Origin: Acidobacteriota bacterium
GTDB lineage: Bacteria; Acidobacteriota; Polarisedimenticolia; J045
Direction: 5' to 3'
DNA: 64,000 nt
Assembly (NCBI GenBank): GCA_017994815.1
Contig: JAGOJY010000004.1
Coordinates: forward strand, 76,466 to 140,465
The position numbers and the translations under genes are program-made. This document shows, one piece after another, positions 1,934 to 29,062 of this stretch. The stretch's first letter is position 1. Each line of letters begins with the position of its first letter. The notes beneath the pieces were generated by a model. The model did no database searches. It had not been told where the DNA came from and saw only the letters and a list, made by a program, of their open reading frames with translations.

Positions 1934-1937
1934 GCGG

Positions 1938-4627: not shown

Positions 4628-4655
4628 CGAAGCACCAATGGCCCCGGAGTAGGTA

Positions 4656-7743: not shown

Positions 7744-7909
7744 GGCAGACCGCGGATCGTTCACGTCTCTGTGCCCGCGCTGCTGGTCAGGAAGGCCCAG
7801 ATCGCGGGAGGATCCGGGGTGTTGTGGTTGCTCGCATCCATGGACTTCAACCTGCCAAGCCCACCGGTCGTGTCAACGGTCCGGTTCTCGCGGACTCTCG
7901 GGCAGGGCC

Positions 7910-9103: not shown

Positions 9104-9126
9104 GCGCACAGACCGCCGTTGGCTAA

Positions 9127-9588: not shown

Positions 9589-9590
9589 GT

Positions 9591-14480: not shown

Positions 14481-14492
14481 GGTCGTTCCCCC

Positions 14493-15065: not shown

Positions 15066-15256
15066 GTCCGGTCTCCTCAGACTGGGCAGAGATGGATCAA
15101 CTCCGACGCACATCGCTGCCCGAATGAAAACGAGCCCCATAGGACGTCCCCAACCCTCTTCCCGGTAGTTCTACGCCGGTGCGTTCAGGTCCGCTACCGG
15201 TTGAACACCAATGGTTACTGTGTAAGTCCCGGAGGTTTGGGAAGAACCCTGCCAAA

Positions 15257-15301: not shown

Positions 15302-16087
15302 CTACCGCACCCGGACGAGAGTTTCCGCCGCCCGCACGGTGTCGCCGGTGCAGACGGGGAGGTAGTCGCACCAGGCGCACCACAGCCCGGGGCGCTTGTA
15401 GAACTCGCCCTCGGCGATCCGCCGGCCGAGCAGGGCGGCCTTGGTGAGGAACTCGGAGAGGTGCCGTTCGGTGCGGGACGTGAGGTGCCACTCGATCCGC
15501 GGCTCTTTCGTCTTCACGAGCACGCACAGGGCGGCCTGCTCGGCCGTGGGCTCGGCGAGCTGGTAGGCCGTGAGCTGGTCCGAGAGTTCCGCCTCGTGCT
15601 CGTCGTAGCGGGCGGAGGCGGTCTTGAAGTCGATCACGGTGCGCTTGCCGTCGAGGACGGCCACGAGGTCCACGACACCCACCAGGGGCAGGTCGAGGCT
15701 GGTGACGTCGAGCTGGAACGGCTTCTCCACGGCTCCGACGGTGCCGAGCTTGGGAAGCTCGTCCGCCACGAACCGGGCGAGGAGCACCTCGCCGATGCCG
15801 TCCAGCCGCTCCCAGGAGTCGCGCGTGCCGTACGTGAGGGCGACCTGCTTCGTCGCCTCCCAGGTCTCGCCGAACAGCGAGACCGGATCCTCGCCCGACT
15901 GGAACAGCCGGGCGAGGGCCTGGTGGACGATCTGGCCGAAGACGAGTGTCGCGGGCGGGACCTTCGGGCGGAGGTTCTCGACGTAATACAGGCGGTACTG
16001 CTCGGGGCAGTGGAGATAGCGGCTGAGGCGCGAGAACGAGAGGTGGGGCGTGGCCCTCGCGACTGGCTCCGGACGGGCGGCGGTCAC
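15302..16087 (-). CDS. PD-(D/E)XK nuclease, Cas4/RecB-like with C-terminal Cys cluster
   Basis: N-terminal motif SFSRLSRYLHCPEQYRLYYVE, DFKT motif, and C-terminal CAWCDYLPVC. GTG start at 16087 overlaps the stop of the upstream SWIM gene (GTGA). Confidence 0.65.
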   Translation of the reverse strand: MTAARPEPVARATPHLSFSRLSRYLHCPEQYRLYYVENLRPKVPPATLVFGQIVHQALARLFQSGEDPVSLFGETWEATKQVALTYGTRDSWERLDGIGEVLLARFVADELPKLGTVGAVEKPFQLDVTSLDLPLVGVVDLVAVLDGKRTVIDFKTASARYDEHEAELSDQLTAYQLAEPTAEQAALCVLVKTKEPRIEWHLTSRTERHLSEFLTKAALLGRRIAEGEFYKRPGLWCAWCDYLPVCTGDTVRAAETLVRVR

Positions 16088-16950
16088 GGTGACCGCCGCG
16101 GGGCGGGACCGAGCGGCAGGACCTGCTCGACGTTCTGGAACCGGCCGTCGGGAGACGGCTGGGTCACGATCCGGCACAGCAGGTCGAGCCGGACGCCCTC
16201 GGCGACGGTGCCGGCGCGGTCGGGGAAGCCGGCCGCGGCGATCGCGTCGGCGAGCTGCTTCGGGTTGCCGAACAGTCTGAGCGTCTGGCCGTTCGATTGG
16301 ATCAGGATGTAGAGCCTGCGGCCCCACTTGCCGTCCATGCCGTCGATGCGCAGGAGCATCGCCGGCATGCCGGACTGAGCCGGCGGGGGCGCAGCGGGAC
16401 GCGGCGCGGGAGCGGAACGCTCGGCACGCTGTTCGCCGTTTCCGGCGAGGAACCGGCCGATGATCCCGGCCTGGAGCGCGAGGATCGCCTCGGCTCTGCC
16501 TTCGGTTTCGGAGCGGGTCGGCTCGACCGGGCAGGAGAACTCGACCGAGAGCGAGTCGATCCGGCCGTCGGGGGAGATGCTGCGCTTGAGCAGCATCTGC
16601 GCCGCCGAACCGTTCGTGGTGTGTGGCGCGCGCCGGCGCCGGGTGGGTTTGCCCTCCTCCTGGATCGCGGCGCGCTCCTCGTCCTCGGCGGGCGGCACCG
16701 TTTCGGGCGGAGCCGGGGCCGCGAAGCGGCTCTGGACCGCCAGCACGTGCTTGCAGCGCCAGTCAGGGTCGGTGCGGTGATAGTCGAAGTCGGGGCAGGT
16801 GCAGGTCGGGCTGTTCAGGTCGGGGCCGACGACGTACACGGTCCGCCCGTTCTGGGGCGCGTGAACGCGAAAGCCGTCGGGGCCGCGCGCGATGACGAAG
16901 ACTTCGTCCGTGGCGCGTGTGTCGCGGGGTTGTCGTTCCTCGGGTCGCAT
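16084..16950 (-). CDS. SWIM zinc-finger protein with uncharacterized C-terminal domain
   Basis: CTCPDFDYHRTDPDWRCKHVLAV matches SWIM CxCxnCxH. A Pro/Ala linker and an unknown C-terminal domain follow. Confidence 0.65.
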   Translation of the reverse strand: MRPEERQPRDTRATDEVFVIARGPDGFRVHAPQNGRTVYVVGPDLNSPTCTCPDFDYHRTDPDWRCKHVLAVQSRFAAPAPPETVPPAEDEERAAIQEEGKPTRRRRAPHTTNGSAAQMLLKRSISPDGRIDSLSVEFSCPVEPTRSETEGRAEAILALQAGIIGRFLAGNGEQRAERSAPAPRPAAPPPAQSGMPAMLLRIDGMDGKWGRRLYILIQSNGQTLRLFGNPKQLADAIAAAGFPDRAGTVAEGVRLDLLCRIVTQPSPDGRFQNVEQVLPLGPAPRRSP

Positions 16951-17109: not shown

Positions 17110-18282
17110 ATGGCCACTCCTTCTTCCCAGTCCGTGACGCTCCTCGGGCGCACCACGTTCCGCAACGTGCACCGCGTGTTCGGCATCCGGCAGCGCGACC
17201 GGCTAAGTCACGTCTACCTCATCGGGCGCACCGGGGTGGGTAAGTCCACGCTCTTGGCGTCGATCGCTCGTCAAGATGTGGACGCTGGGCACGGCCTCGC
17301 GCTGTTCGACCCACACGGCGACCTCGCGGACGACGTCGCGGGCTACGCCAAGCGGGTGCGGCCCGACGACCTTCTTTACCTCAACGCCCCTGATCCAGCG
17401 CAGCCGTTCACGTTCAATCCTCTCGCGGAGGTGTCACCGGAAAGACGCTCTCTCGCGTCGGCGAATCTGCTCGACGTGTTCAAGAAGATCTGGGCCGACT
17501 CGTGGGGCCCGCGCCTGGAGCACATTTTGAGGAACTGCCTCTTGACGTTGCTCGACCAACCGGAGCCATCCCTGGGCGACATGCCGCGCTTGCTGCATGA
17601 CACTGCGTACCGCAAACGCGCGGTTCTGCGCGTCGCGAACCCTCAGGTCCGGCACTTCTGGCTCGTCGAATGGGAGGGGTACGGCGTCCGGTTCCGGGCC
17701 GAGGCCGCGGCGCCGCTCGATAACAAGGTCGGCGCCTTCGTCACCGACCCCGTGCTCCAACGAGTACTGCTCGCAAGAAACCAACCACTTAGCCTGCGCC
17801 GCATCATGGACGAGGGCCGCGTGCTCGTCGTGAATCTCTCGAAGGGCCGTATCGGCGAACCCGTCGCGGCGCTCCTTGGTTCCCTCCTGTTGGCAAGCCT
17901 CGGACTCGCCGGCCTTGGACGCGCCGACGTGCCCGAGACGGCACGCCGCGACTTCTTCACGATGCTCGACGAGTTTCAGTTCTTCATCACGCAATCGTTG
18001 GCAGGCATGCTCGCCGAGCTCAGGAAATTCCACGTCGGCCTGACGCTCGCGCATCAGTTCCTCGGCCAACTCGATCCGCTGCTTCGGAATGCTGTTCTGG
18101 GGAACGTGGGGTCCTTGGTCTGCTTTCGAATCGGCGCTGAGGATGCGGAGACTCTGGAACGGGAGTTCGTGCCGGACCTCCGGGCAGAAGACCTCAGTAC
18201 CCAACCGAACTTCGCCTTCTACACCAAGATCATGAATGACGGCCGCATCTCGCGGCCATTCAGTGCGGAGACGTTCCGCTGA
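17110..18282 (+). CDS. HerA/FtsK-superfamily ATPase, TraD/VirD4 (T4SS DNA-transfer)-like, no TM segment
   Basis: Walker A GRTGVGKST, LFDPHGDL motif and Walker B LDEFQF. The C-terminal LAHQFLGQL resembles the T4CP C-terminal region. Confidence 0.7.
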   Translation: MATPSSQSVTLLGRTTFRNVHRVFGIRQRDRLSHVYLIGRTGVGKSTLLASIARQDVDAGHGLALFDPHGDLADDVAGYAKRVRPDDLLYLNAPDPAQPFTFNPLAEVSPERRSLASANLLDVFKKIWADSWGPRLEHILRNCLLTLLDQPEPSLGDMPRLLHDTAYRKRAVLRVANPQVRHFWLVEWEGYGVRFRAEAAAPLDNKVGAFVTDPVLQRVLLARNQPLSLRRIMDEGRVLVVNLSKGRIGEPVAALLGSLLLASLGLAGLGRADVPETARRDFFTMLDEFQFFITQSLAGMLAELRKFHVGLTLAHQFLGQLDPLLRNAVLGNVGSLVCFRIGAEDAETLEREFVPDLRAEDLSTQPNFAFYTKIMNDGRISRPFSAETFR

Positions 18283-18335: not shown

Positions 18336-19769
18336 TCAGAATCGGTTGCTGGCGTAACCCCGCTCACGCCAGCCCTGGACGTGATTGCGCGCGCGCCGGA
18401 TGATCTTCGCTTGGTGCTGGAATCCCGCCTGCATGGCCACCTGGAGTGCGCGATCCAGCGTATCCACGGCGGCAGTGATGTCCCGGTCCAGGTGCCAGCG
18501 TGCCAGAGCCGCGGCGCGAAGAGCGGCACTCCGAAAGCGCGTCTCCATCTCCTTCTGTTCCAGCGCGGCGAGGAGGTGATCGAGCGCTCGCCCATACTGG
18601 CCGGTCTTGCGAAGGGCGTCGCCGTAAACTACATGCTTCCCGTGCGCGCTGCCTTCACTCCCGGCCGCCTTCAAGATCATGGACTCGCTCGCTGCGGGAA
18701 GTACGCTACGTCCGCCAGCGAGGACTTCCTCGCGTAGGGCACGAGCACGCACGAGTTCCCGTTCGCCCGCCTCACTCCGTATGTTACGCAGGAGCTCGAT
18801 CGCGTGGTCGAGACGCGTCAAGCGGTCCTCGTCTGCTGCGGCCGTTTCCAGTTGATCAGCCACGCATACCGCGATGTAGTGCGCACGCGCTCTGGTGAGA
18901 TCCGCCTCAGGCTGACCCAGCCCGCTCTGTTTGAGGCTCCGGAAGATGTCCGTCACCACGGCTGACGAGAGCTGAGGTCGGCCGATCTGCATTTCGATCC
19001 GTGCGCGCGCGAGCAGGAGGCCGTACCACACCGGATCGGCACGCTTCTGTTCACTTCCGAAATACCGGTCGATGGCGCCGTCGAGAAGAAGCTGGGCCGT
19101 GACCCACTGGTCCTCCGCGCACAATTTGCGCGCCCGTCCCACGCATTCCCCAACGTCACCTTCCCGCATCGCGATCTTGCGGGCGACATGATCGACGTAC
19201 TGCGTCGCGCGGTCCTCGTCCTCGACACGAATGTCGTCGGCGACGATCCACCACGGCCCGCTGGCGCGGGCCACGTGTCGGTAGTTGCGCATCTCGTCCC
19301 AGCGCAGCAGATCACCGGGGTGTGCGTTGAGGTTTCGCTTCAGCCACTGCTCGAAGGCCCATTCTGTCTGGCCGAGGCGCTCACGAATCCGCACCGCCTG
19401 GGACGGGGATCGCGGGTGGTGCGCCTGCTCCTTGATCACGAGGAGCAGAAACGCCACGTGGTGTTCCGTGAAGCGTTCGCCGATCAGCCCGAGCCGAGGT
19501 GGCAGCTTGGGCGGGAACGGCCCGAGGCGAAGGCGCTCCACGTCCTCGCCCGGAAACTGCCAGGAGATCACGGCCGACGACTCGAACGCGCGACGGGCGG
19601 TCCGTCGCGCCTTAACCCGCGCTGCGGTCCTAGCGCCTACGGGAGTCACCGCAGCCATATCCGGTGCGTCGTCTTCGATCCGAATCCGAAAAAGAGAAGC
19701 CTGTGGCTTCTGCATTGCTTTCTCTACCCCGGTTGTCCGAACCGTAGCCTGACGCGCACCTGCTGACAA
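18336..19769 (-). CDS. Hypothetical alpha-helical protein (477 aa)
   Basis: Long ORF with no recognisable motifs. Start may instead be at MQKPQ (19718). Confidence 0.45.
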   Translation of the reverse strand: MSAGARQATVRTTGVEKAMQKPQASLFRIRIEDDAPDMAAVTPVGARTAARVKARRTARRAFESSAVISWQFPGEDVERLRLGPFPPKLPPRLGLIGERFTEHHVAFLLLVIKEQAHHPRSPSQAVRIRERLGQTEWAFEQWLKRNLNAHPGDLLRWDEMRNYRHVARASGPWWIVADDIRVEDEDRATQYVDHVARKIAMREGDVGECVGRARKLCAEDQWVTAQLLLDGAIDRYFGSEQKRADPVWYGLLLARARIEMQIGRPQLSSAVVTDIFRSLKQSGLGQPEADLTRARAHYIAVCVADQLETAAADEDRLTRLDHAIELLRNIRSEAGERELVRARALREEVLAGGRSVLPAASESMILKAAGSEGSAHGKHVVYGDALRKTGQYGRALDHLLAALEQKEMETRFRSAALRAAALARWHLDRDITAAVDTLDRALQVAMQAGFQHQAKIIRRARNHVQGWRERGYASNRF

Positions 19770-20035
19770 CCATTGCCCGCAGAACGCAGCCGCGGGTTGG
19801 TGGTGGAGCGGGGAGTGTTAGCGCACTCCCCTCGGCAGGCAACGGTTATCTGCCACCCACCGACCCACAGGAGGTAGAGCTCCATGTGGGCGCTCCATGT
19901 AGTCGCGCCACTCGTCCAGTCGTTGCGCCAGAGTTTCGCGCGGATCTGCGCGCACACCTTGTCTGACGCCCCGCCACGACATTTCTGTCACACCACTTCA
20001 ACCACACGGCGCACGACGCGCCACTGGGAGGCTCG

Positions 20036-21676
20036 ATGACCGCGAGACCTACGTCGCCCTCGCCAACGGAGGGTGGGCGCGCCGAACGACCGGCACGTCC
20101 GCACCTCGGCAGTACCCGCCGTGCTGACGACCCGGGTGATGGTCTGGAACCGCCGGACGGTGATCCGCCTGATGACCCCGTCTGGTTCGATCGCGAACAC
20201 CAGCAGGTGCTGCTACGGATCGAGAGCTGCGACACCCGTCGCGACCAGGAACGGGCCGCCCGAATCGCGAGCGCGGAGCAGACCGAGCGCATCCAGGAAC
20301 TGAACGCGGAAGAGGCAGGACTCGGGAGTGACGAGCACCTGCGGCGCATCGCCGAGAGTTCCTGGTTCCCCCATCTCCGCGCGATCCGGCGCGGCGCGAA
20401 CCTATGCTGGTGGTTCGACATGTTGCTCTGGATGGCGTTGGCAGTGAGCCTGTGGTTCTACTGCCGGCAGCTGGTTCAGGCCGACGACGGGTCGACGCCA
20501 GCGCTCCTCTACCTCGCCGGCCTCGTCCTGGTACCCCTCTTCGCGTCGGTCTGCGCGCGGGCGACGAAGGGTATGGGGCAGCAGGTCGCCGTTAGCCGTT
20601 TGACCGACGCGACGAACATCGAGCACACGATCGACCGGCAGGTACGGGTGGCTGGGTCGTGCGCCGTCTTCGGCCTCGCCTGCCTCTTGGTACTCCTCAT
20701 CTCCTTCCTCTTCACGATTCCCGGGGGCGTCGGGGTCGTTCAGGCGGTGAGCACGATCGTGACCATCGGGGCGAACGTCACCTTTGGTCTCGCGGCCGGG
20801 ATCGGTAGCAATGCAGCTGGGATCCTCGAGAAGCCGAGCCGGCGAGAGACGATTCGTTGCCGTATCGAGATGAAGAAGAACCTGCGCGATCGGCTCTCGA
20901 AGTTTTTCAGCGTTCTTGCCGTTATCGCCAGCGGGCTGAGTGCGGCTCGAGGTGCCGAGCCGGCACCCGTCTGGGTCTGGCTGGTCGGCACGACCGACCT
21001 CGAGCCGATCCAACGCCGCGCAGCGTTGGATGCCCTGGTCCGGAGTGCCACCACACGTGCGCGCCAGTTGAACGTCGGTGCCATTCAGGTCGTGACCATC
21101 ACTGGCGAGGACATCCTCTCGAACATGCGGTGGGTAGTGGTTCCTCGGCAGGCCTACTTCGAGGACTGCGCCAAAGCGCGGCCCGCGACGGCGATTGGGA
21201 AGACCTGGACGCAGTGGTCTCCGGCCGTCGTCGCAGAGCACCGCGCCCAGGCGGTTGCCGCGTGCACTGCGCGTGTACGCGAACAACGATCCCAGGCCCT
21301 CGCCGAGGAGCAGGGATTCCGCAACGCTCTCTGGTCCGCGGTGTCCGCCACGCCTCGCGCGAACGCAACCCGTATCGTCCCACTCCTGAACCTCGTGCTG
21401 TCCCGCCCGGGAACACGCGCGGTCGACATCGTGAGTACCGGTGTCGACCAGAGTGGTTTGCCCCTCATGTCCCTGAGCGTGCCGGCGACAACTCGCGTCA
21501 CACTCATCCTCACCCGTCCGGACCCGCGACACCGTCCCTACCTTTGGGACGTGCTCCAGGCCGGTAAGGCGTGGTCACGCGTGAAAGGCGTCGTCGTAGT
21601 CGGTGCCGAGGAGTACGCCGGGGTCTGGCCGGTTCTAAACGCTGGCTCGCTTTCACGCAACACGGGGAGCGAGTAG
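20036..21676 (+). CDS. Polytopic membrane protein, hypothetical (546 aa)
   Basis: Several hydrophobic helices (WWFDMLLWMALAVSLWF, LYLAGLVLVPLFASV, CAVFGLACLLVLLISFLF). First gene of a tightly overlapping operon. Confidence 0.5.
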   Translation: MTARPTSPSPTEGGRAERPARPHLGSTRRADDPGDGLEPPDGDPPDDPVWFDREHQQVLLRIESCDTRRDQERAARIASAEQTERIQELNAEEAGLGSDEHLRRIAESSWFPHLRAIRRGANLCWWFDMLLWMALAVSLWFYCRQLVQADDGSTPALLYLAGLVLVPLFASVCARATKGMGQQVAVSRLTDATNIEHTIDRQVRVAGSCAVFGLACLLVLLISFLFTIPGGVGVVQAVSTIVTIGANVTFGLAAGIGSNAAGILEKPSRRETIRCRIEMKKNLRDRLSKFFSVLAVIASGLSAARGAEPAPVWVWLVGTTDLEPIQRRAALDALVRSATTRARQLNVGAIQVVTITGEDILSNMRWVVVPRQAYFEDCAKARPATAIGKTWTQWSPAVVAEHRAQAVAACTARVREQRSQALAEEQGFRNALWSAVSATPRANATRIVPLLNLVLSRPGTRAVDIVSTGVDQSGLPLMSLSVPATTRVTLILTRPDPRHRPYLWDVLQAGKAWSRVKGVVVVGAEEYAGVWPVLNAGSLSRNTGSE

Positions 21677-21679
21677 CCG

Positions 21680-21964
21680 ATGGACGACCTGAAGCGTGCT
21701 GCGATCGGGCTGCTCCTCATGCTGCTGCTTCTGGGGTTCTCCTGGGGACTCTTGAAGGGACAGCTGGCCGCCCTTCACACCAGTCCCGGCAAGCTCGCAA
21801 AGCTGACGGCTCGATACCTCGCCGGGGCCGCGCGGGTGGCGTTCCGACTCGTGCGCTGGCCCCTCTCCTACGTCGGCCTTGCGGGCCGTCAACTTCGTCG
21901 CCTGCCGTTCAAGACTACCTTCACCGACCGAGGTCGCGCGCGATCGGTCGGCTTCGAGGACTGA
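21680..21964 (+). CDS. Small membrane protein, hypothetical
   Basis: TM helix AAIGLLLMLLLLGFSWGLL. Starts 4 nt after the stop of the previous gene. Confidence 0.4.
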   Translation: MDDLKRAAIGLLLMLLLLGFSWGLLKGQLAALHTSPGKLAKLTARYLAGAARVAFRLVRWPLSYVGLAGRQLRRLPFKTTFTDRGRARSVGFED

Positions 21965-21966
21965 CC

Positions 21967-22476
21967 ATGCGGCTTGCGCAGTTTCAGATTCTCGACCAGT
22001 GGCACCTGCTGGTTCGTGCCGCTGGCCACAAGGGAGCAAGGTTTGTCATTGCCCTCGAGCGAGCACTGGCGGCGGCCGCTCTGCCCGGCATTGAGTGGCA
22101 TGAAGCGAGCATCGCCGCCGGTTTCCTGAAGAGCCTTCGGGGCAAACGTCGTGATGTCCTCGTCATCACTACGCGGGCGTTCCCCGAACACCGCGTGCTC
22201 GTGAGTCACTATCCCTACGGAACGGCGCTCGGCGTGGGCCGATTCGTGGTCGTGAGACCGCGCATCGGGCGAGATGCCCGACGACTCCTGTCCATCCCGC
22301 GGCACGGTACGAGTTGGCACGAGGTGGGCTCAGAGCACGACGTGTTCGAGTGCATGGATCTTGCCGCCGCCATCGCCGTCGTGGACAACGCCGTGAACGT
22401 TGCGGTCGGCGTGCTCAAGCAACCCGAGAGTGAAGGAACGGGTGAGTCGGGCACGTCGAGCGCGGACGTGTTGTGA
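21967..22476 (+). CDS. Hypothetical protein (169 aa)
   Basis: Internal ATG of ORF 21571..22476, chosen because it follows the previous stop by 3 nt. Overlaps the next start. Confidence 0.4.
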   Translation: MRLAQFQILDQWHLLVRAAGHKGARFVIALERALAAAALPGIEWHEASIAAGFLKSLRGKRRDVLVITTRAFPEHRVLVSHYPYGTALGVGRFVVVRPRIGRDARRLLSIPRHGTSWHEVGSEHDVFECMDLAAAIAVVDNAVNVAVGVLKQPESEGTGESGTSSADVL

Positions 22477-24536
22477 TTACGCTCCTGGTTCTGGCAGGCC
22501 TCGCTCTCGGCGGGGCCTGCCTCGTCTATGTCTACTTTGCGCAGCAACGACAGGATCAGGGCCGACGCCAGCGCGAACGCGCGACATGGCTTGCGCACGA
22601 CCGGGCAGCCAAGGCGACGAGCGCAGTCGAACGCGTCGCCCGCTTTTACCCGTTCCTGCTGAGAGAGCTCGAGGCGGTAAGCGTCGCGACAGAGAAGTCT
22701 GGCACAGCAGTTCGTGATCTTCTGCAGTCGCTTCCCGGGATCTCGATCGGTGTCGGGCCCCACGACATTCCCGCCGTGCTGGCCCACAGCCGGAGACCGT
22801 CGCACGTCCTCCTCCTGGCTCGCTCCGGTGGCGGCAAGACCGTTCTCTTGACCCGGGTGCTCGCTCATGACCTAGGGCACACCAGTGTCGTCGTGATCGG
22901 CGCTGAGCGAGATGCATTTCGCCGGTTGGTCCTGCCGTTTGTTCCGCCAGCGCGGGCAAAGGACACCGTGTACTGGGCGCTCGGGGACGAAGCGTGCCCC
23001 GTCGGACTGAACGCTTGTGACGTTCCGGCCGGTGCTTCGCCGGCCCGATACGCCGGGGACCTCTACCACATCTGGAAGCAGGGTTCGGAAGAAGACTCCA
23101 TAGGCGGTCGCAGCGACGCGATCGTCTGGAACACGCTCGCGGTACTCGTTGCCGCCCCCGGCACCTCGTTCCTCTCGATCCGCCCCATACTTGAAGACGC
23201 CTCGTTCCGTGCGGGCCTGCTTGAGCACGTCACCGATTCCGAGGTTCGGAACTACTGGACCAGTTCTTTTCCCCGTCTGCCCGCAAGCGCCATTCAGCCG
23301 TTCCTGAACCGCGTGACACGGATCCTGAGTCCGGCTATTCGCCGCGCGTTCTGTGCGGAGCAGAACACGTTCTCGCTGCGGGGCGTACTCGACTCCGGCG
23401 TACTGCTCGTGGACACCTCGGGCTTGCCGCCGGACGAACGACGCCTCGCTGCCCAGCTCGTTCTCGCGATGATCCAACTCTGCATCGAACAGCGCGACGA
23501 GATCGATGAAGGCGCTCGGCCCCGGACGCATCTGTTCATCGACGAATTTTCCACGCTGGCCGGAACGTCCGAGCATACGTGGCGCGAGTTGTTCTCCCGC
23601 TCGCGTCGCATGGGTCTCGGTCTGTTCTTGACCTTGCAGCACACCGCGGCCTTGCCTACGGCAATTCGAGCGGAGCTCCTGACCAATAGTTCCACGCTGA
23701 TCGCCTTGCCGTTGGGCGCGAAAGACGCAGCCCTCCTCAATCGCGAGTTCTTGGTGCCGTCTACGACGGGCGGAACGGCGGCGATTCCGTCAGCGAGGCT
23801 CATAGACAGCGGTGTGGGGTCGGGCTATCTGCGCACGGCGCCCGGCGCGGTGGCCATGCCCGTCCGATTCCACCCACCCCTGGCAGAGCGCCCAATAGCG
23901 GACGGCGAGCGCATCAAGTCGGTGTCGTGGAAGACACATGGAGCATCGAGGCCGCCTGAGGCGGGGCCACCGCCTGTTATGGCGCGATCCGCTCCATGCC
24001 CCCCTGCCGAGCCTCCGCTGAGTGGATTGCCCGGCCGCGGCGGCTCTCAGCACAAGTTCCTCCAGCAATTCGTTGCTCAGGTGGGGTCAGAGCGCGGGTT
24101 TCGCTCAGACCTAGAACTCTCGATCCTCGCCGGCACCGGACGAGTAGATGTTGCCCTCATGCGTGACGATCTCCGGATTGCCGTTGAGATCGCGATCACC
24201 ATGACTCCTGAGCGGGTCGCAGCATCCGTAACGAAGTCACTCGCGGCGGGATTCGACCGCGTCGTTGTCCTTGCGCCAGACCAGAACCTACGGCGACGAA
24301 TTGAGCCAGAGCTCGCAGCAGCGCTCGGCAGTAAGGAACGTGAGCGAGTCCACGTCGGTGGCGCCGAGACGCTCGTTGCCCTGTTAGACGAAGTCCAAAC
24401 ACCGACATCGTCCGATCAACCCGCCGGGTACCGCCTCTCGGTTCGACAGGTGGAGGTTCCCCCAGTTCGAGCTACGGCAAACCGCGCGACGCTCGCCCGA
24501 ATCGTTGGTGACGCGCTTCTACGGAGGACGCAATGA
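22473..24536 (+). CDS. Membrane-anchored FtsK/TraD-like (T4CP-like) ATPase with extra C-terminal domain (687 aa)
   Basis: N-terminal TM MITLLVLAGLALGGACLVYVYF, Walker A ARSGGGKT and Walker B LFIDEFSTLAG. ~200-aa C-terminal domain of unknown function. Confidence 0.7.
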   Translation: MITLLVLAGLALGGACLVYVYFAQQRQDQGRRQRERATWLAHDRAAKATSAVERVARFYPFLLRELEAVSVATEKSGTAVRDLLQSLPGISIGVGPHDIPAVLAHSRRPSHVLLLARSGGGKTVLLTRVLAHDLGHTSVVVIGAERDAFRRLVLPFVPPARAKDTVYWALGDEACPVGLNACDVPAGASPARYAGDLYHIWKQGSEEDSIGGRSDAIVWNTLAVLVAAPGTSFLSIRPILEDASFRAGLLEHVTDSEVRNYWTSSFPRLPASAIQPFLNRVTRILSPAIRRAFCAEQNTFSLRGVLDSGVLLVDTSGLPPDERRLAAQLVLAMIQLCIEQRDEIDEGARPRTHLFIDEFSTLAGTSEHTWRELFSRSRRMGLGLFLTLQHTAALPTAIRAELLTNSSTLIALPLGAKDAALLNREFLVPSTTGGTAAIPSARLIDSGVGSGYLRTAPGAVAMPVRFHPPLAERPIADGERIKSVSWKTHGASRPPEAGPPPVMARSAPCPPAEPPLSGLPGRGGSQHKFLQQFVAQVGSERGFRSDLELSILAGTGRVDVALMRDDLRIAVEIAITMTPERVAASVTKSLAAGFDRVVVLAPDQNLRRRIEPELAAALGSKERERVHVGGAETLVALLDEVQTPTSSDQPAGYRLSVRQVEVPPVRATANRATLARIVGDALLRRTQ

Positions 24537-25513
24537 GCGGCCCGGTCCCGTTCGGGCTCCGGCGTGAGCGCGGCACACTCGTGGCTGAACCCGCCGAGGC
24601 GGGCCTCGTCCGCGCCCTGGTTGGGGAATTCCTAGCAACGGGACGAATGAAGTCAGTTGCCGCGACGTTGAATCAACATGGGTTTCGGACCAGACGCGGC
24701 CGGCCGTGGAGTGACATGGCGGTTGCGCGAGCACTCCAGACGATTTGCGTTCACAACCTCGTGGACGAAGGACTTCGTGCCCGTTGCGCTGCCCTGCTCG
24801 AGGCCCACCGTCAAGGCGCGCCCGCTCGGCGCGCGGTGCACCCCTTGGGCGGCGTGGTCGCCTGCGGCACGTGCAGCGGGAGGATGTACCTCTTCGGCTC
24901 GGGTCCAACCGGCAAGTTCATCTGCCGATCCTGCCGAACGAAGATTCCCGCGCCGACACTAGAGCAGGTCTTCGTGGCAAGTCTCGCCTCGATTTCGATC
25001 ACACCCGAAGAGGTCTGCGCGGCATGTGGGGATCAGGAGCGACCCCTCGACCTGCCTCCCCGCGGTCTTGCTGTAGCGGAGATCTGGCCGGCGCTTGGCC
25101 TCGACGATCGACGGCAACTCGTTGACGCGGTCGTGTCCGAGGTGGTGGTCGCAGACAACGAGATCACGGTTTCCTTCGCATTGACCGCGGCGTCATCGGC
25201 GCCCAGCAGCGACGGCCCGCCCGTCCCGTCGCCTTCTTCTCGCAGTTGTACGTCCTCCAAGAAGAAGCCAACGAAACAGCGCAACACAAAGGCTGACCGT
25301 TCGGCCGCACCCGAGGAAAGCGCGGGGCCGTTGGTCACCGTGGAGGAAGCGGCGGCGCTCCTCCGCACGAGTCCGAAGGCGATTTACGCCATGGCCGAAC
25401 GCGGACAGCTCGGTGGCGTGGTGCGCGTGGGACGCCGCCTGCTCTTCTCGCGGGAGCAGCTGCTACACTCACTCACCGGAAGTCGTGCGCCATCGCCTGA
25501 GGAGACCAGGTGA
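24533..25513 (+). CDS. Serine-recombinase-derived protein lacking catalytic domain (recombinase domain + Cys4 ribbon) fused to C-terminal excisionase/AlpA-type HTH
   Basis: N-terminus PFGLRRERGTLVAEPAEAGLVRALVGEF is a recombinase domain. CGTCSG...CRSC is a zinc ribbon. C-terminus LVTVEEAAALLRTSPKAIYAMAERGQL is an Xis/AlpA-like HTH. Overlaps both neighbours. Confidence 0.55.
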   Translation: MSGPVPFGLRRERGTLVAEPAEAGLVRALVGEFLATGRMKSVAATLNQHGFRTRRGRPWSDMAVARALQTICVHNLVDEGLRARCAALLEAHRQGAPARRAVHPLGGVVACGTCSGRMYLFGSGPTGKFICRSCRTKIPAPTLEQVFVASLASISITPEEVCAACGDQERPLDLPPRGLAVAEIWPALGLDDRRQLVDAVVSEVVVADNEITVSFALTAASSAPSSDGPPVPSPSSRSCTSSKKKPTKQRNTKADRSAAPEESAGPLVTVEEAAALLRTSPKAIYAMAERGQLGGVVRVGRRLLFSREQLLHSLTGSRAPSPEETR

Positions 25514-26643
25514 TGAGCGTCAGAGTCAGACCGTACCGACGAGGCGGCTTCGAAGTGGACATCCTCGCGCTCCTGCCCGACGGAACCCGGATTCGAGATC
25601 GGCGCCGAGCGCCGGTCGCGAGCCGATCCGCGGCCCTTCGCTGGGGCCAGGCGCGCGAACGGGAACTCATCCGCAACGGTCGCCCGAAACAACGAGAGGA
25701 GGTGCCAACGCTCGCAGATTTCGCTCCGCGTTTTCTCGACGGCTACGCGCGAGCGAATCGGCAGAAGCCCAGCGGCATCGCGGCGAAGGAGACTGCGCTC
25801 CGGGTCCACCTGATTCCTGCTCTGGGCAACAAGCCGTTGGACCGGATCGGCAACGAGGACGTACAGCGCGTCAAGACGGCTCTCTCGGACCGATCCCCAA
25901 AGACGGTGAACAACGTGCTCACGGTCCTCAACACGTTGCTCAAAGTAGCCGTCGAGTGGGGAATCGTTGAACGAATGCCCTGCACCGTCCGCCTGCTACG
26001 CGTGACCCAAGGCCGTGCGGGCTTTCACGATTTCCACGAGTACGAGCGGCTCATCGAGGCGGCTCGGGCGGTCGACAGCAATGCCTTAGTCGTGGTGCTG
26101 CTGGGTGGCGAAGCCGGGCTCCGCTGTGGCGAGATGATGGCCCTCGAGTGGACCGACGTGGACACGACCCGGCGTCAGCTGCAGGTAGAGCGCTCCGAGT
26201 GGAAGGGCAAGGTCACGGTCCCGAAGGGCGGCCGGTCTCGCATCGTGCCGATGACCTCGCGCCTTGCAGCGGCACTCACCGCACACCGGCATCTCAGGGG
26301 ACCGCGCGTGTTGTGCCAACCGGACGGGCAATCGCTCACACAGAAGATGGTGCGGGTCTTGGTGCAGAAGGCCGCGCGCCGGGCCCAACTCAAGAACCAG
26401 AGCGTGCACATCCTGCGGCACACCTTCTGCTCGCACCTTGCGATGCGGGGAGCCCCCGCGCGCGCCATCCAAGAACTAGCCGGACACAAGGACCTGTCCA
26501 CGACGCAGCGCTACATGCACCTCTCCCCGGCAGCAATCGAGAGCGCTATTCGCCTCTTGGACAGGTCAACACAACACCGGGGCACTGGAGACGGTGTGGA
26601 GACGGGCTCTGCCGAGAAACACAACCAGAGCCCGCACAAGTAG
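25510..26643 (+). CDS. int: Tyrosine-type site-specific integrase
   Basis: C-terminal catalytic region HILRHTFCSHLA...TTQRYMHL carries the R-H-R-Y pattern. Ends 5 nt from the tmRNA 3' end. Confidence 0.9.
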   Translation: MMSVRVRPYRRGGFEVDILALLPDGTRIRDRRRAPVASRSAALRWGQARERELIRNGRPKQREEVPTLADFAPRFLDGYARANRQKPSGIAAKETALRVHLIPALGNKPLDRIGNEDVQRVKTALSDRSPKTVNNVLTVLNTLLKVAVEWGIVERMPCTVRLLRVTQGRAGFHDFHEYERLIEAARAVDSNALVVVLLGGEAGLRCGEMMALEWTDVDTTRRQLQVERSEWKGKVTVPKGGRSRIVPMTSRLAAALTAHRHLRGPRVLCQPDGQSLTQKMVRVLVQKAARRAQLKNQSVHILRHTFCSHLAMRGAPARAIQELAGHKDLSTTQRYMHLSPAAIESAIRLLDRSTQHRGTGDGVETGSAEKHNQSPHK

Positions 26644-26648
26644 TTAGG

Positions 26649-27005
26649 TGGTGGAGGCGGCGGGAATCGAACCCGCGTCCGAGGAAGGTCGGCAACAGGC
26701 TTCTACACGCTTAGCCGCTTCTTTTGGATCTCGCGTCGGCCGCACCGAAGGGCAGGTTCGGCGTCCGCCAGCCCTTTGATCTCGTCGCGCGCTGCCGGGC
26801 CGGCAACGCGGGACCAGCCCGCGTCCATTGACGTCCTGACTCCACCCCACGGGCGGGGCGAAGGGGACGGACCGCTTTTAGTTAAGCAGCCAGAGCAAGT
26901 TCAGTGTTGGCGCTTGTTTTAAGCGTCCCGTGGATTTACGAGGTACCGGGAACCCTCGGCGTGCCACCTGCGCTTTCCAGTCCCCGTCGAGTCCTGTTCG
27001 CCCCC
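26649..27005 (-). ncRNA. ssrA: tmRNA (ssrA), tag reading frame ANTELALAA
   Basis: 5' end GGGGGCGAACAGGACUCGACGGGG. 3' T-arm GCGGGUUCGAUUCCCGC followed by CGCCUCCACCA. Acceptor stem carries the G3:U pair. Internal ORF GCC AAC ACT GAA CTT GCT CTG GCT GCT TAA. Confidence 0.85.
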
Positions 27006-27067: not shown

Positions 27068-27607
27068 TCAGCCCGGCGGCGCGGGCGGCGCGGCCAGCAG
27101 AGCGGTCAGCTCGTCGCGCTGAGCGGGATCGAGGTCCGGGCTGAAGTGGAGCACGGCCTCGCGGGTGTCGCTGGTCTCGAAGTAGGCGGAGCGGCAGTCG
27201 AGGTGGATGAAGCCGCCGGGGGTGAACCGGACCTCCTCGAAGTACGTCAGCCGGATGCGCCAGCTGCCGCGGGGGATCGGTTCGCGGCAGTGGCGGCACT
27301 TGGCCTGGCCGCCGGGGGCGCGCTCGGCGCCGTCGATGCGCGGCAGCCGCGGTGCGGCGGAGGCGGCATGGGCGGCGCGTTCCAAACTGTCGCGGTCGGG
27401 CACGTCCCCCGGCTGCGCGAGGAACTCGAGCAGCGATCCGGGCCGCTTGTACGCCGCGCAGAGCGGGTGGAACCACAGCGTGGTCTCGCCCTCTCCATAG
27501 GGGTTCGCGATGCGCTCGCCGAAGCGCAGTTCGCCGCGCCCGATCGGCCGCGTGCAGCCGCGGCAGCGCGAGCGCCCGGTGGTCGCCGGCTCGAGGACGT
27601 GCGTCAC
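27068..27607 (-). CDS. PARP-type zinc-finger protein (two zf-PARP-like repeats)
   Basis: CRGCTRPIGRGELRFG...WFHPLC and CRHCREPIPRGSWRIRL...FIHLDC. GTG start overlaps the MFS stop (GTGA). The Arg-rich upstream part of the 732-aa track ORF was discarded. Confidence 0.55.
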   Translation of the reverse strand: MTHVLEPATTGRSRCRGCTRPIGRGELRFGERIANPYGEGETTLWFHPLCAAYKRPGSLLEFLAQPGDVPDRDSLERAAHAASAAPRLPRIDGAERAPGGQAKCRHCREPIPRGSWRIRLTYFEEVRFTPGGFIHLDCRSAYFETSDTREAVLHFSPDLDPAQRDELTALLAAPPAPPG

Positions 27608-28863: not shown

Positions 28864-29062
28864 TCCGCGGGTGCCCCTCCCGGGCGCCGCGGCCGGACCC
28901 GGGCGGTCCCGGCGCGCGGTCCGACAAGCGCGACGTCAAGACGCTACACCGCGGGGCCGGTCCGGGCACGCCGCGGTCGCCCCGCACGACACGTTTCCCG
29001 GCTCGGGACGCTCCGGCACGCCGCGGCGTAAAATCGCGGCAGCGGCCCGTTACCCTCGACGC

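What the first reader, a model, noticed from the sequence alone, without database searches (positions are those of the whole stretch)
20036..26643. Six-gene overlapping operon: membrane proteins, membrane-anchored T4CP-like ATPase, recombinase-fragment/Xis fusion, tyrosine integrase
All junctions overlap or are 3-4 nt apart (21676/21680, 21964/21967, 22476/22473, 24536/24533, 25513/25510), which implies one transcript ending in the integrase next to ssrA. The only transfer-like components are a TM-anchored FtsK/TraD-like ATPase and two membrane proteins; no VirB4 or relaxase is visible. This resembles the minimal dsDNA-translocase transfer strategy of actinomycete ICEs rather than a classical T4SS, or else an unknown function using a coupling-protein scaffold.
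Basis: inference. Interest (0 to 1): 0.55.

Follow-up and report, generated by a model that had tools for sequence, protein, structure and literature searches.

The report
Integrase-linked membrane DNA-pump/nuclease module
The six overlapping genes are real and form the integrase end of a ~28-kb genomic island inserted in the tmRNA gene; at their centre is an uncharacterised but widespread membrane-anchored DNA-pump ATPase fused to a nuclease-like domain that travels next to site-specific recombinases, most likely as the island's own DNA-mobilisation module.

Summary
ORFs 20036-26643 abut or overlap exactly as reported, and a 91%-identical relative has the same gene calls. The operon ends 5 nt from the 3' end of ssrA. 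A contig that extends the window leftwards carries a 27-nt copy of that end, so the island is about 28.4 kb.

- The 687-aa ATPase carries a conserved C-terminal domain of about 170 aa with PD-(D/E)XK-like topology and invariant H/E/D/E residues.
- A paralogous soluble ATPase (17110-18282) belongs to the same syntenic block.
- Gene 3 is soluble.
- Gene 5 is a large serine recombinase that lost its catalytic domain and gained an Xis-type HTH.

The string small TM protein, g3, ATPase-nuclease, g5, tyrosine integrase recurs in three other lineages besides a near-identical copy, once more at ssrA. Long-form relatives sit beside intact serine or tyrosine recombinases. More distant relatives precede MobC (Replic_Relax) relaxase genes.

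No T4SS or canonical relaxase lies in the island. The ATPase is not FtsK/TraB-like, so the actinomycete-ICE analogy fails.

Best reading (about 0.45): a compact coupling-protein/nuclease, Xis and Int mobilisation module. Main rival (about 0.25): an anti-invader nuclease-ATPase effector. It is a new variant of a known kind.

The parts
16084..16950 (-). SWIM zinc-finger protein (288-aa ORF), divergent from the soluble ATPase. It is the left edge of the conserved syntenic block.
   Evidence: Pfam SWIM, E 1.7e-5. A 53%-identical homologue sits in the same position and orientation in metagenome locus L013.
17110..18282 (+). Soluble T4CP/HerA-like ATPase of 390 aa with no TM segment ('ATP390'). It is a paralogue of the g4 motor and a probable partner motor.
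   Evidence: 28% identity to g4 over 331 aa, E 4e-22. Family hits: DUF87, TrwB_AAD_bind, SXT_TraD, CedD, mad8, phrog_5156. Syntenic in L001, L013, L007 and L018. It is fused between a g4-like motor and the C-terminal domain in P0014.
18336..19769 (-). 477-aa ORF of unknown function between the two ATPase genes, on the opposite strand.
   Evidence: No hit in Pfam, NCBIfam, PHROGs or PADLOC. Present in L001 (94.5% identity) but replaced by an unrelated 240-aa ORF in L013.
19770..19883 (.). 114-nt divergent control region containing a perfect 8-bp hairpin (19810-19831) and an AGGAGG site (19870-19875).
   Evidence: Only 1 difference from L001 across 19740-19883, whereas the following 150 nt carry about 15 differences. 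The hairpin is inverted repeat I8.
19884..20039 (+). g0: 51-aa ORF, possibly a leader or small protein. Its coding status is uncertain.
   Evidence: Strong SD and a 4-nt overlap with g1. It is called in L001 (52 aa) with an in-frame 3-nt indel, but shows 3 syn / 10 nonsyn codon changes.
20036..21676 (+). g1: 546-aa polytopic membrane protein (about 5 TM segments between residues 123 and 305) with a conserved C-terminal domain of about 240 aa. It is lineage-specific.
   Evidence: Hydropathy analysis. No Pfam, NCBIfam, PHROG or PADLOC hit. In the 5.8-billion-protein search it matched only itself. Homologues exist only in L001, L006 (39% over 132 aa) and L013 (28.5% over 484 aa).
21680..21964 (+). 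g2: 94-aa protein with an N-terminal TM helix and a basic tail.
   Evidence: Hydropathy analysis. Analogous 86-87-aa proteins (TM plus Arg-rich tail) occupy the same slot in L005 and L008, but no sequence similarity to them was detected.
21967..22476 (+). g3: 169-aa soluble protein and constant upstream partner of the ATPase-nuclease. Family unknown.
   Evidence: Homologues (29-36% identity) lie directly upstream of g4 in L004, L005, L006, L008, L013 and L014. Weaker g3-like genes precede long-form g4 in L017 and L020. No match in Pfam or among PDB sequences.
22473..24536 (+). g4: 687-aa membrane-anchored ATPase-nuclease. Its parts are a TM helix (aa 1-24, nt 22473-22544), a T4CP/HerA-type motor with an all-alpha insertion (aa ~100-470, nt 22770-23882), a Pro-rich linker, and a PD-(D/E)XK-like domain (aa ~520-645, nt 24030-24407).
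24533..25513 (+). g5: 326-aa catalytically dead remnant of a large serine recombinase (recombinase domain plus CxxC...CxxC zinc ribbon, aa 1-~215) fused to an Xis/excisionase-type HTH (aa 267-314, nt 25331-25474).
   Evidence: Pfam Recombinase 26.9 bits (cut-off 21.1) and HTH_17 39.5 bits; no Resolvase domain. TIGR01764 'excise' 29.1 bits (cut-off 28.8). It aligns to residues 176-365 and 462-499 of the intact LSR that follows long-form g4 in L020. It is 43-44% identical in L004, L005 and L008, and is read as one ORF with g4 in L005.
25510..26643 (+). g6: tyrosine integrase (377 aa, or 376 aa from ATG 25513).
   Evidence: Phage_integrase E 1.7e-27, SAM-like N-terminal domain, phrog_1 E 2e-54. 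HxxR and RY motifs are visible in the translation. It is 61-62% identical in L004 and L008.
26649..26675 (-). Proximal att core: the last 27 nt of ssrA (CGGGTTCGATTCCCGCCGCCTCCACCA on the tmRNA strand).
   Evidence: An exact 27-nt direct-repeat copy lies at L009 12237-12263. L009 is 100% identical to window 1-10471 and extends it leftwards, which places the distal copy at window coordinate about -1765 to -1791. No second copy lies inside the window.
26649..27005 (-). ssrA (tmRNA, tag ANTELALAA), the integration target.
   Evidence: ARAGORN. GC rises from about 0.65 to about 0.72 at this point. Relative L008 has the same module ending 16 nt from its own tmRNA.

Best explanation
The operon is the integration/excision-plus-DNA-processing end of a ~28.4-kb island integrated in the 3' end of ssrA.

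Shown: g6 is the tyrosine integrase.

Shown for architecture, inferred for role: g5 is a large serine recombinase that lost its catalytic domain. It keeps its sequence-specific DNA-binding recombinase/zinc-ribbon domains and has gained an Xis-type HTH. It probably acts as the directionality and site-recognition factor.

Shown for architecture, inferred for activity: g4 is an inner-membrane-anchored ring ATPase of the VirD4/VirB4/HerA kind, with an apparently active P-loop and a fused, apparently active PD-(D/E)XK-like nuclease domain.

Inferred mechanism: after excision, g5 marks a site on the circular element and recruits g4, together with its constant partner g3 and probably the paralogous soluble motor at 17110-18282. 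The nuclease domain cuts or nicks there. The motor then feeds the DNA to the membrane for export, either through a helper conjugative pore (IME-like mobilisation) or through the element's own membrane proteins g1 and g2.

In effect the module is the 'coupling protein, relaxase, Xis, integrase' cassette of integrative mobilizable elements, with the nuclease fused to the coupling protein.
For: 1. The block g3, g4, g5, Tyr integrase is syntenic in the window and in L001, L004, L005 and L008. Identity is only 33-35% for g3 and g4, 44% for g5 and 61% for the integrase. L008 also ends at tmRNA.
2. Long-form relatives keep the linkage to a recombinase. In L020 the order is g3-like, g4-long, intact LSR. 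In L019 the C-terminal domain sits next to an intact LSR. L018 has a g4-like gene next to a Tyr integrase, and L017 has a Tyr integrase 2 kb away.
3. g5 is homologous to those LSRs minus the catalytic domain, and it is read as one ORF with g4 in L005. Start/stop overlaps join g3/g4/g5/g6.
4. More distant ATPase relatives (P0004-P0006) lie immediately upstream of PF13814 Replic_Relax genes, which equal MobC, a restriction-endonuclease-like relaxase family (PMC5357655). One relative, P0162, is fused to that domain. P0161 lies in a locus with NlpC/P60 and a second weak TrwB-like ATPase.
5. Streptococcal IMEs have exactly this compact CP, relaxase, Xis, Int layout, including a VirD4 + MobC class (PMC5357655).
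6. An N-terminal TM helix is present in g4 and in all 15 full-length short-form relatives P0010-P0036. Walker motifs and the H/E/D/E residues of the nuclease-like domain are invariant across 34 members.
7. The island also has excision-compatible ends (27-nt direct repeats) and a primase/P-loop replication module.
Against: - No canonical relaxase, oriT or T4SS gene lies in the island, and no helper is known in these phyla.
- Specific homology of the C-terminal domain to MobC relaxases is not supported: hhalign gives E 0.05 with 1% probability.
- The motor fold is equally close to the defence ATPase DptH/DndH and to HerA. Its best curated-library hit is the defence model mad8, at 7.5e-13.
- In Gemmatimonadota-type relatives the genes upstream are a vWA, PP2C and Ser/Thr-kinase triad typical of conflict systems.
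- L007 lies beside a Gabija-like pair.
- In L019 the domain is joined to RHS repeats, as a toxin tip would be.
- g1 is not conserved outside one lineage.
- Every locus is a MAG or metagenome contig, so the g4-g5 fusion could be an assembly error.
- Nothing here was tested experimentally.
Confidence: 0.45

Rival explanations
1. Anti-invader (defence or exclusion) effector carried as integrase-proximal cargo. g4, with g3 and the soluble paralogue, is a membrane-tethered ATPase-nuclease that captures and cuts incoming phage or plasmid DNA at the inner membrane. In some lineages it is controlled by a kinase, PP2C and vWA sensor triad.
For: - PADLOC mad8 hits for both ATPases, 7.5e-13 and 7.6e-15.
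- A vWA + TM-PP2C + Ser/Thr kinase (zinc ribbon plus beta-rich C-terminus) lies directly upstream in L004, L005 and L008. This triad is described in NTP-dependent conflict systems (PMC7159879).
- L007 is adjacent to an OLD-family ATPase plus UvrD helicase, a Gabija-like pair.
- Members of the C-terminal domain family give weak hits to CoiA_nuc, PDDEXK_9 and REase-ARP.
- The same domain follows RHS/YD repeats in L019.
- The island carries other conflict cargo: an RHS toxin, a RelE/Phd pair and a Cas4-like nuclease.
Against: - It is not MADS. Only mad8-like and mad1-like (generic HTH) hits were found. No other MADS component, including the mandatory mad6 and mad7, matched any island protein scanned, and no methyltransferase was found.
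- Defence cargo normally varies while the integrase module stays. Here the ATPase-nuclease keeps its position next to Xis/Int or an LSR across 24-35% identity and across recombinase classes.
- This reading does not explain retention of a dead LSR between g4 and int, overlapped with both, or its fusion to g4 in L005.
- The family is nearly absent from phage and plasmid records. Only 4 of 2.9 million IMG/VR contigs carry it.
Confidence: 0.25
2. Recombination- or segregation-coupled motor. By analogy with FtsK activating XerCD, the membrane-anchored translocase is tethered to the att region by g5. It controls the directionality or timing of integrase action, or resolves and partitions the excised replicating circle. 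It does not export DNA.
For: - The layout resembles FtsK: TM anchor, linker, ring motor, flexible Pro-rich linker, C-terminal DNA-interacting domain.
- The integrase's best curated matches are Xer-type recombinases, XerA/XerC/XerD at 1e-21 to 1e-28.
- There is invariant adjacency, and once fusion, to recombinase-derived proteins.
- The island has its own primase/P-loop replication genes and an iteron-like repeat cluster.
Against: - The invariant catalytic-type residues of the C-terminal domain point to cleavage, not just binding.
- A second motor and membrane proteins are unnecessary for this role.
- No precedent exists for tyrosine integrases of islands needing a motor.
Confidence: 0.12
3. 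One reading: an autonomous AICE-like element that transfers double-stranded DNA with a single TraB-like pump and no T4SS.
For: - No T4SS or relaxase lies in the island.
- int, an Xis-like domain and a replication module are present.
- A membrane-anchored ring ATPase is present.
- The distant relatives come from actinomycete-like contigs; an SsgA gene lies in L002.
Against: - The motor is not of the FtsK/SpoIIIE family.
- No clt-like 8-bp repeat array was reported near it.
- The hosts are Acidobacteriota and Gemmatimonadota MAGs. From general knowledge these are diderm bacteria, where a single inner-membrane pump cannot cross the envelope.
- The actinomycete relatives themselves are paired with MobC relaxases, which implies ssDNA-type processing.
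Confidence: 0.08

Closest known systems
Compact mobilisation modules of integrative mobilizable elements (coupling protein, relaxase, excisionase, integrase), especially the VirD4 + MobC (PF13814) class (Coluzzi et al. 2017, PMC5357655)
   Same: - Same gene order and compaction at the integrase end of an island that lacks a T4SS.
- A VirD4-superfamily, membrane-anchored ATPase is present.
- A restriction-endonuclease-fold nuclease sits where the relaxase would be.
- An Xis-type HTH sits just before int.
- More distant relatives of the ATPase really are paired with, or fused to, MobC genes.
   Different: - The nuclease-like domain is fused to the ATPase and is not detectably a MobC/Replic_Relax domain.
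- The Xis domain is fused to a dead serine-recombinase body.
- There is a constant extra partner (g3), a second soluble motor and lineage-specific membrane or signalling genes.
- The hosts are Acidobacteriota and Gemmatimonadota.
Type IV coupling proteins TrwB / VirD4 / TraD / Cag-beta / DotL
   Same: - N-terminal membrane anchor.
- RecA-like NBD with an all-alpha insertion.
- These are the Foldseek top hits.
- Family members pass the Pfam T4CP thresholds.
   Different: - g4 itself is below the Pfam cut-off (15.6 against 20.5 bits).
- One predicted TM helix, where T4CPs usually have two (general knowledge, not tested here).
- A C-terminal nuclease-like domain is present. The TraG-D_C (TraM-recognition) model gives no hit in g4 itself, although relatives pass it.
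- No cognate T4SS or relaxase is present.
DptH/DndH C-domain and MAD8: T4CP/HerA-like ATPases of DNA-modification-dependent defence systems
   Different: - None of the partner genes of the Dnd/Dpt or MADS systems is present.
- Sequence identity to DptH-C is 10%.
- The known examples are not recombinase-linked.
Actinomycete ICE (AICE) TraB dsDNA translocase
   Same: An integrating element with int, xis and rep modules and one membrane-anchored ring ATPase in place of a T4SS.
   Different: - A different ATPase family: no FtsK_SpoIIIE (PF01580) hit.
- The C-terminal domain has a nuclease-like alpha-beta-beta-beta-alpha-beta fold. TraB's C-terminal winged helix is recalled from the literature and was not compared here.
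- No clt repeats.
- Different phyla and envelope type.
Large serine recombinases and their C-terminal DNA-binding domains (for g5)
   Same: The recombinase domain, zinc ribbon and C-terminal 'ADNEIT' segment align with intact LSRs that follow long-form g4 genes.
   Different: The catalytic resolvase domain (about 175 aa) is missing. An HTH_17/excisionase domain has been added. The adjacent active recombinase is a tyrosine integrase.

Membership tests
VirD4/TraD/TraG type IV coupling proteins | N-terminal transmembrane anchor | tested here: met
   Hydropathy predicts a TM segment at aa 1-24 in g4 and in all 15 full-length short-form relatives P0010-P0036. AF2 models a helix at 2-58. Only one helix is predicted.
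VirD4/TraD/TraG type IV coupling proteins | P-loop NBD with intact Walker A/B | tested here: met
   G119, G121, K122, D357 and E358 are invariant in the 13- and 34-sequence alignments, along with R378 and Q389.
VirD4/TraD/TraG type IV coupling proteins | Match to curated family models above threshold | tested here: inconclusive
   g4 scores 15.6 bits on TrwB_AAD_bind against a cut-off of 20.5, and 14 bits on SXT_TraD. Long-form relatives pass TrwB_AAD_bind, TraG-D_C and T4SS-DNA_transf.
VirD4/TraD/TraG type IV coupling proteins | Fold closer to T4CPs than to other FtsK/HerA-superfamily clades | tested here: inconclusive
VirD4/TraD/TraG type IV coupling proteins | Genetic linkage to a relaxase and a T4SS | tested here: not met
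   No relaxase, VirB4 or MPF Pfam hit in any island ORF scanned, nor in the precomputed annotation of L009. The rest of the genome was not examined.
Integrative mobilizable element (IME) | Integrase at one end, element bounded by att direct repeats | tested here: met
   The Tyr integrase lies 5 nt from ssrA. A 27-nt exact repeat lies about 28.4 kb away on L009, the 100%-identical extension of the window.
Integrative mobilizable element (IME) | Excisionase / directionality factor | tested here: met
   The g5 C-terminus scores 39.5 bits on HTH_17 and 29.1 bits on TIGR01764 'excise' (cut-off 28.8). Function was not tested.
Integrative mobilizable element (IME) | Relaxase or oriT-binding mobilisation protein | tested here: inconclusive
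   No canonical relaxase was found. The candidate is the PD-(D/E)XK-like domain of g4. hhalign against three MobC domains gives E 0.05 with 1% probability. No oriT was identified.
Integrative mobilizable element (IME) | Transfer through a helper's conjugative pore | not testable with these tools
   This needs mating assays and knowledge of co-resident conjugative elements.
Actinomycete ICE (AICE), TraB-type transfer | FtsK/SpoIIIE-family (PF01580) translocase | tested here: not met
Actinomycete ICE (AICE), TraB-type transfer | clt locus: array of 8-bp repeats near the tra gene | tested here: not met
   Neither the repeat scan of 1-30000 nor the fine scan of 19700-20100 reported an array in or beside the operon. 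The only 8-mer cluster (GGGGACTT, 1786-1923) lies 20 kb away beside the primase genes.
Actinomycete ICE (AICE), TraB-type transfer | Actinomycete host | tested here: not met
   The source record is named 'MAG: Acidobacteria bacterium'. Relatives come from Gemmatimonadota and Acidobacteriota MAGs.
MADS defence system | Mandatory MAD6, MAD7 and MAD8, plus methyltransferase and specificity genes | tested here: not met
   Only mad8-like (both ATPases) and mad1-like (generic HTH) hits were found. No other MADS model matched any of the 16 island proteins scanned. The requirement is stated.
PD-(D/E)XK nuclease superfamily (g4 C-terminal domain) | alpha-beta-beta-beta-alpha-beta core | tested here: met
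   The AF2 model (domain pLDDT about 86-93) gives H525-540, E544-551, E556-564, E567-573, H579-591 and E596-600.
PD-(D/E)XK nuclease superfamily (g4 C-terminal domain) | Conserved acidic/Lys catalytic constellation on beta1-beta3 | tested here: met
   H527, E548, D559 and E572 are invariant in 34 sequences. K587 (in the next helix) is conserved in at least 90% of sequences. The canonical ExK lysine is absent.
PD-(D/E)XK nuclease superfamily (g4 C-terminal domain) | Significant profile match to a described PD-(D/E)XK family | tested here: not met
   Only sub-threshold hits: CoiA_nuc in 3 of 30 members, PDDEXK_9 and REase-ARP. The PDB profile search found nothing relevant. A domain-only fold search was not possible.
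Large serine recombinase (g5) | N-terminal resolvase catalytic domain with the active-site serine | tested here: not met
   No Resolvase hit. g5 residue 1 aligns to residue 176 of the intact LSR in L020. g5 is a derivative and not a recombinase.
Tyrosine recombinase (g6) | Phage_integrase catalytic domain with the R..HxxR..Y residues | tested here: met
   PF00589 at E 1.7e-27. 'HILRHTF' and 'QRYMH' are present in the translation.

The most novel reading that the evidence does not exclude
g2, g3, g4 and the soluble paralogue, with g1 in Acidobacteriota, form a previously unrecognised, recombinase-tethered DNA translocon. Two T4CP/VirB4-like motors are involved, one membrane-anchored and carrying its own PD-(D/E)XK nuclease. 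They are loaded onto the excised island by a domesticated dead serine recombinase. The assembly moves island DNA across the inner membrane without a canonical relaxase or T4SS. This would be a third route of island transfer, alongside T4SS conjugation and TraB-type transfer. The layout of small TM proteins, a polytopic membrane protein and ATPases echoes the archaeal Ced system and minimal T4SS inner-membrane cores.
Probability: 0.15. Interest if true: 0.85.

Novelty: new variant of a known kind. Interest (0 to 1): 0.6.

Why it matters
The ATPase-nuclease family is large: 297 cluster representatives at E<1e-30 and thousands of more distant ones. Its C-terminal domain and its partner g3 matched no Pfam, NCBIfam, PHROGs or PADLOC family. 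It spans at least Acidobacteriota, Gemmatimonadota and Gammaproteobacteria, and it is repeatedly bolted onto site-specific recombinases of two unrelated classes.

If it is a mobilisation module, it would explain how islands move in phyla where almost nothing is known about conjugation. It would also give a fused 'coupling protein + nuclease' as a compact marker for finding mobilizable islands that current relaxase-based tools miss.

If it is a defence effector, it would be a new membrane-tethered nuclease-motor system.

Either way, g5 is a clear example of a serine recombinase domesticated into a DNA-binding accessory of a tyrosine-integrase module.

Tried and rejected
- **attL inside the window.** No second copy of the ssrA 3' end was found. 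It was found instead on the identical contig L009 that extends the window.
- **Look-up of the 292-aa ORF.** An exact-sequence look-up, tried in order to extend the window, failed.
- **MADS membership.** Rejected; only superfamily-level hits.
- **MobC homology of the g4 C-terminal domain.** BLAST found a 13-residue match (E 0.09). hhalign against one sequence gave E 0.25, and against three gave E 0.05. Not significant.
- **vWA identity of the g1 C-terminal domain.** This was suggested by a 'TDGxDN'-like motif in L013. hhalign against a Pfam-verified vWA protein gave E 0.36; dropped.
- **g5 as a copy of the island's own LSR (6133-7743).** Only E 0.1 similarity.
- **PDB sequence searches.** Searches with g4, the C-terminal profile, g5 and the g3 profile found nothing useful beyond a BldC/Xis-like HTH.
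- **Word-indexed homologue searches.** These found almost nothing for g4 and g1. Only the exhaustive HMMER search revealed the family.
- **Phage and plasmid collections.** No phage match. In plasmids there were only distant Streptomyces 'ATP/GTP-binding protein' genes and two alphaproteobacterial T4CP-like genes, with uninformative contexts.
- **First AF2 model.** Built from a 9-sequence alignment, it was poor (pLDDT 60) and was replaced.
- **Structure resources.** The afdb50 fold library was unavailable. The C-terminal domain could not be searched alone, and ATPase hits swamp the lists.
- **attL in L008.** Not found within the 10 kb available.

Full report
**1. Observation.** The six ORFs are present exactly as described. 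The junction sequences show 2-3-nt gaps (g1/g2, g2/g3) and GTGA, ATGA and GTGATG overlaps (g3/g4, g4/g5, g5/g6). Codon-position GC is coding-like in all six. A 9.5-kb contig from another sample (L001, 95% DNA identity) was called independently as 52|547|94|169|686|327|376 aa in the same order. Window-versus-L001 substitutions are biased to synonymous changes in g1, g2, g4, g5 and especially g6. ARAGORN places tmRNA at 26649-27005 on the minus strand, 5 nt beyond the integrase stop. GC jumps from about 0.65 to about 0.72 there. A small upstream ORF (g0, 19884-20039) with a strong SD also overlaps g1, but it evolves like non-constrained sequence. No promoter-like or convincing terminator-like site interrupts the string.

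**2. The island.** No copy of the ssrA 3' end lies elsewhere in the window. The RelE-like toxin at 226-471 led to contig L009, which is 100% identical to window 1-10471 and extends it about 6 kb to the left. L009 carries an exact 27-nt copy of the tmRNA 3' end (CGGGTTCGATTCCCGCCGCCTCCACCA) about 1.8 kb beyond the window edge. Housekeeping-type genes and higher GC follow it. The island is therefore about 28.4 kb between direct repeats.

Its other genes are:
- a Phd/RelE pair
- a CHC2-Toprim primase plus a P-loop protein
- a large serine recombinase (LSR)
- PRiA4_ORF3
- a 1629-aa RHS protein
- a Cas4-like PD-(D/E)XK protein
- a SWIM protein
- a second ATPase
- several unknown ORFs.

None hits a relaxase, VirB4 or MPF family.

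**3. The proteins.** g1, g2 and g3 match nothing in Pfam, NCBIfam, PHROGs or PADLOC. g1 is polytopic, g2 has a single TM helix, and g3 is soluble.

*g4, the ATPase.* g4 has an N-terminal TM helix and a P-loop motor. Its hits to TrwB_AAD_bind are sub-threshold, and it matches mad8 and phrog_5156 moderately. Word-indexed searches found only one close relative and a few distant ones. An exhaustive HMMER scan found 6373 relatives, 297 of them at E<1e-30. They include about 20 full-length proteins of about 700 aa and many of about 1000 aa with an extra N-terminal region. The long forms pass the Pfam thresholds for TrwB_AAD_bind, TraG-D_C and T4SS-DNA_transf.

*g4, the C-terminal domain.* Residues ~520-687, after a Pro-rich disordered linker, form a domain present in 124 of the 158 proteins held from the searches. 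Its consensus is GRGGxQHKYLQ...IE...VDVAL...IA(C/V)E(I/V)...N..KCLAAGF. The model shows the alpha-beta-beta-beta-alpha-beta core of PD-(D/E)XK nucleases. H527, E548, D559 and E572 are invariant, and K587 is nearly so. No described family matches it significantly. Only weak hits to CoiA_nuc, PDDEXK_9 and REase-ARP were seen. I read it as a new, probably active, PD-(D/E)XK-type nuclease domain.

*g5.* g5 has the LSR 'Recombinase' domain, a CxxC...CxxC ribbon and an HTH_17/excisionase domain, but no resolvase domain. It aligns with residues 176-365 and 462-499 of an intact LSR that follows a long-form g4 gene. It is therefore a decapitated LSR with an added Xis-type HTH.

*g6.* g6 is a standard tyrosine integrase.

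**4. Comparative context.**

*Short-form loci.* A genome scan gave four short-form loci (L004 and L005 from Gemmatimonadota, L006 from Acidobacteriota, L008 uncultured) and one long-form locus (L007). The metagenome scan added L013 and L014. Small TM protein, g3, g4, g5, Tyr integrase is conserved in L005 and L008 (L004 shares g3-g4-g5-integrase) as well as the window and L001. g3 and g4 are only 33-35% identical, against 61% for the integrase. L008 again ends at a tmRNA gene. In L005, g4 and g5 form one 994-aa ORF.

What lies upstream differs by lineage. The Acidobacteriota type has SWIM(-), the soluble ATPase, a variable gene, g1 and g2 (window, L001, L013, L006). The Gemmatimonadota type has vWA, TM-PP2C and a Ser/Thr kinase with zinc ribbon and beta-rich tail. 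That triad is known from conflict systems (PMC7159879).

*The second ATPase.* The ATPase at 17110-18282 is a paralogue of the g4 motor. It co-occurs with g4-like genes in L001, L013, L007 and L018. In P0014 it is fused between a g4-like motor and the nuclease-like domain. The two motors probably work together.

*Long-form loci.* These keep the link to recombinases. L020 has g3-like, g4-long and an intact LSR. In L019 the C-terminal domain lies next to an intact LSR. L018 has a g4-like gene next to a Tyr integrase. L017 has g3-like and g4-long with an integrase 2 kb away. L007 lies next to RadC and a Gabija-like pair, with no recombinase detected in the ±10 kb held.

*More distant relatives.* At 23-29% identity, relatives precede MobC-type (PF13814) relaxase genes in three of three loci examined. 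One protein is fused to that domain, and another lies in a locus with NlpC/P60 and a second weak TrwB-like ATPase.

*Absence from phages and plasmids.* The family is essentially absent from phage and plasmid collections. It is found in only four IMG/VR contigs.

**5. Interpretation.** The persistence of g3-g4 next to the element's recombinase argues that g4 serves the element's own DNA transactions and is not exchangeable cargo. The supporting points are:
- the linkage holds through deep divergence;
- it survives a switch from serine to tyrosine recombinase;
- the dead LSR body is retained, with overlapping reading frames, and once fused to g4.

The known pattern that fits best is the compact coupling protein, relaxase, Xis, Int cassette of IMEs. 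That pattern includes a VirD4 + MobC class, MobC being a restriction-endonuclease-fold relaxase (PMC5357655). In this island the nuclease would be fused to the coupling protein, and the site-recognition or RDF role would fall to g5. I put this at about 0.45.

It remains an inference for four reasons:
- specific MobC homology of the domain is not supported;
- no oriT or helper is known;
- the motor fold is equally close to defence ATPases;
- some contexts look like conflict systems (kinase/PP2C/vWA, Gabija neighbour, RHS-joined domain in L019).

A defence or exclusion effector is the main rival (about 0.25). A recombination- or segregation-coupled motor gets about 0.12.

**6. Novelty and score.** Integrases at ssrA, Xis-type HTH proteins and T4CP-like ATPases on islands are ordinary. 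Three things are new:
- the ATPase-nuclease fusion family with its partner g3;
- its systematic coupling to recombinases of two classes;
- the domesticated LSR-Xis protein.

I class it as a new variant of a known kind, with interest 0.6. A less likely reading (0.15) is a self-contained recombinase-tethered DNA translocon, which would be far more novel.

**Caveats.** All evidence is computational. Most loci are MAG or metagenome contigs, so the L005 fusion and the L008 integrase frameshift may be assembly errors. The context sample is small, about 12 loci.

Noticed in passing
window 1786-1930 (and L009 11330-11460, i.e. left of the window): Iteron-like cluster. GGGGACTT occurs three times directly and twice inverted within 140 nt, giving 27-nt inverted arms that are 89% complementary. 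There are 7 copies in the window against 1.1 expected. The cluster lies between the 292-aa ORF and the P-loop/primase genes, and a similar cluster lies about 1 kb beyond the window's left edge. It may be a replication origin or operator of the island.
   Followed up: partly
window 22473 (g3/g4 junction), compared with L001: Mosaic divergence between two otherwise near-identical islands. In g1-g3, 2-7% of codons differ. In g4 and g5 about 20% differ, and in g6 12% differ, almost all synonymous. This suggests a recombination breakpoint at the g3/g4 junction, with g4-g5-int exchanged as a unit.
   Followed up: partly
L005 2507-5491: g4 and g5 are read as one 994-aa ORF in a Gemmatimonadota MAG. 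This is either a genuine fusion or a one-base assembly error.
   Followed up: no
L008 13020-14154: The integrase next to tmRNA is split into two overlapping frames (13020-13358 and 13165-14154). It is either a frameshifted pseudogene or a sequencing error.
   Followed up: no
L004 310-1584; L005 495-1694; L008 5741-9136: In the Gemmatimonadota-type elements a triad sits directly upstream of the small-TM/g3/g4 genes. It consists of a vWA protein, a TM-anchored PP2C phosphatase, and a Ser/Thr kinase with a zinc ribbon and beta-rich C-terminus. The same triad is described for actinobacterial conflict systems.
   Followed up: partly
L019 2269-3360: A 363-aa ORF joins genuine RHS/YD repeats directly to the g4-type C-terminal nuclease-like domain, which keeps all conserved residues. 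An intact LSR follows it. It could be a polymorphic-toxin tip or a chimera created by insertion.
   Followed up: partly
window 6133-8467: A second recombinase (536-aa LSR) with a PRiA4_ORF3 gene lies inside the island. The island may be composite or carry a nested element.
   Followed up: no
window 9591-15140: A 1629-aa RHS-repeat protein, flanked by a 215-aa ORF upstream (14493-15140) and a 153-aa ORF downstream (called on L009). This looks like a polymorphic toxin cassette carried as island cargo.
   Followed up: no
L009 11560-11945 (about 1.1-1.5 kb left of the window): A low-GC (0.58) stretch. By my own reading of the sequence, without a tool test, it encodes what looks like the C-terminal fragment of another HerA/T4CP-like ATPase. 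It lies between the toxin-antitoxin pair and the distal att repeat and may be a remnant of an earlier element.
   Followed up: no
window 226-788: A RelE/ParE-like toxin (81 aa, 226-471) overlaps a Phd/YefM antitoxin (471-788). The identical toxin was seen on 12 contigs.
   Followed up: partly
window 15302-16950: The longest ORFs of the Cas4-like PD-(D/E)XK protein (15302-16327) and the SWIM protein (16084-16950) overlap by 244 nt on the minus strand, so at least one start is mis-set. Both lie divergent to the soluble ATPase.
   Followed up: no
window 27604-29650: The core genome side of ssrA has an MFS transporter and a Uma2-family endonuclease at about 0.73 GC. The tmRNA tag peptide is ANTELALAA.
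   Followed up: no
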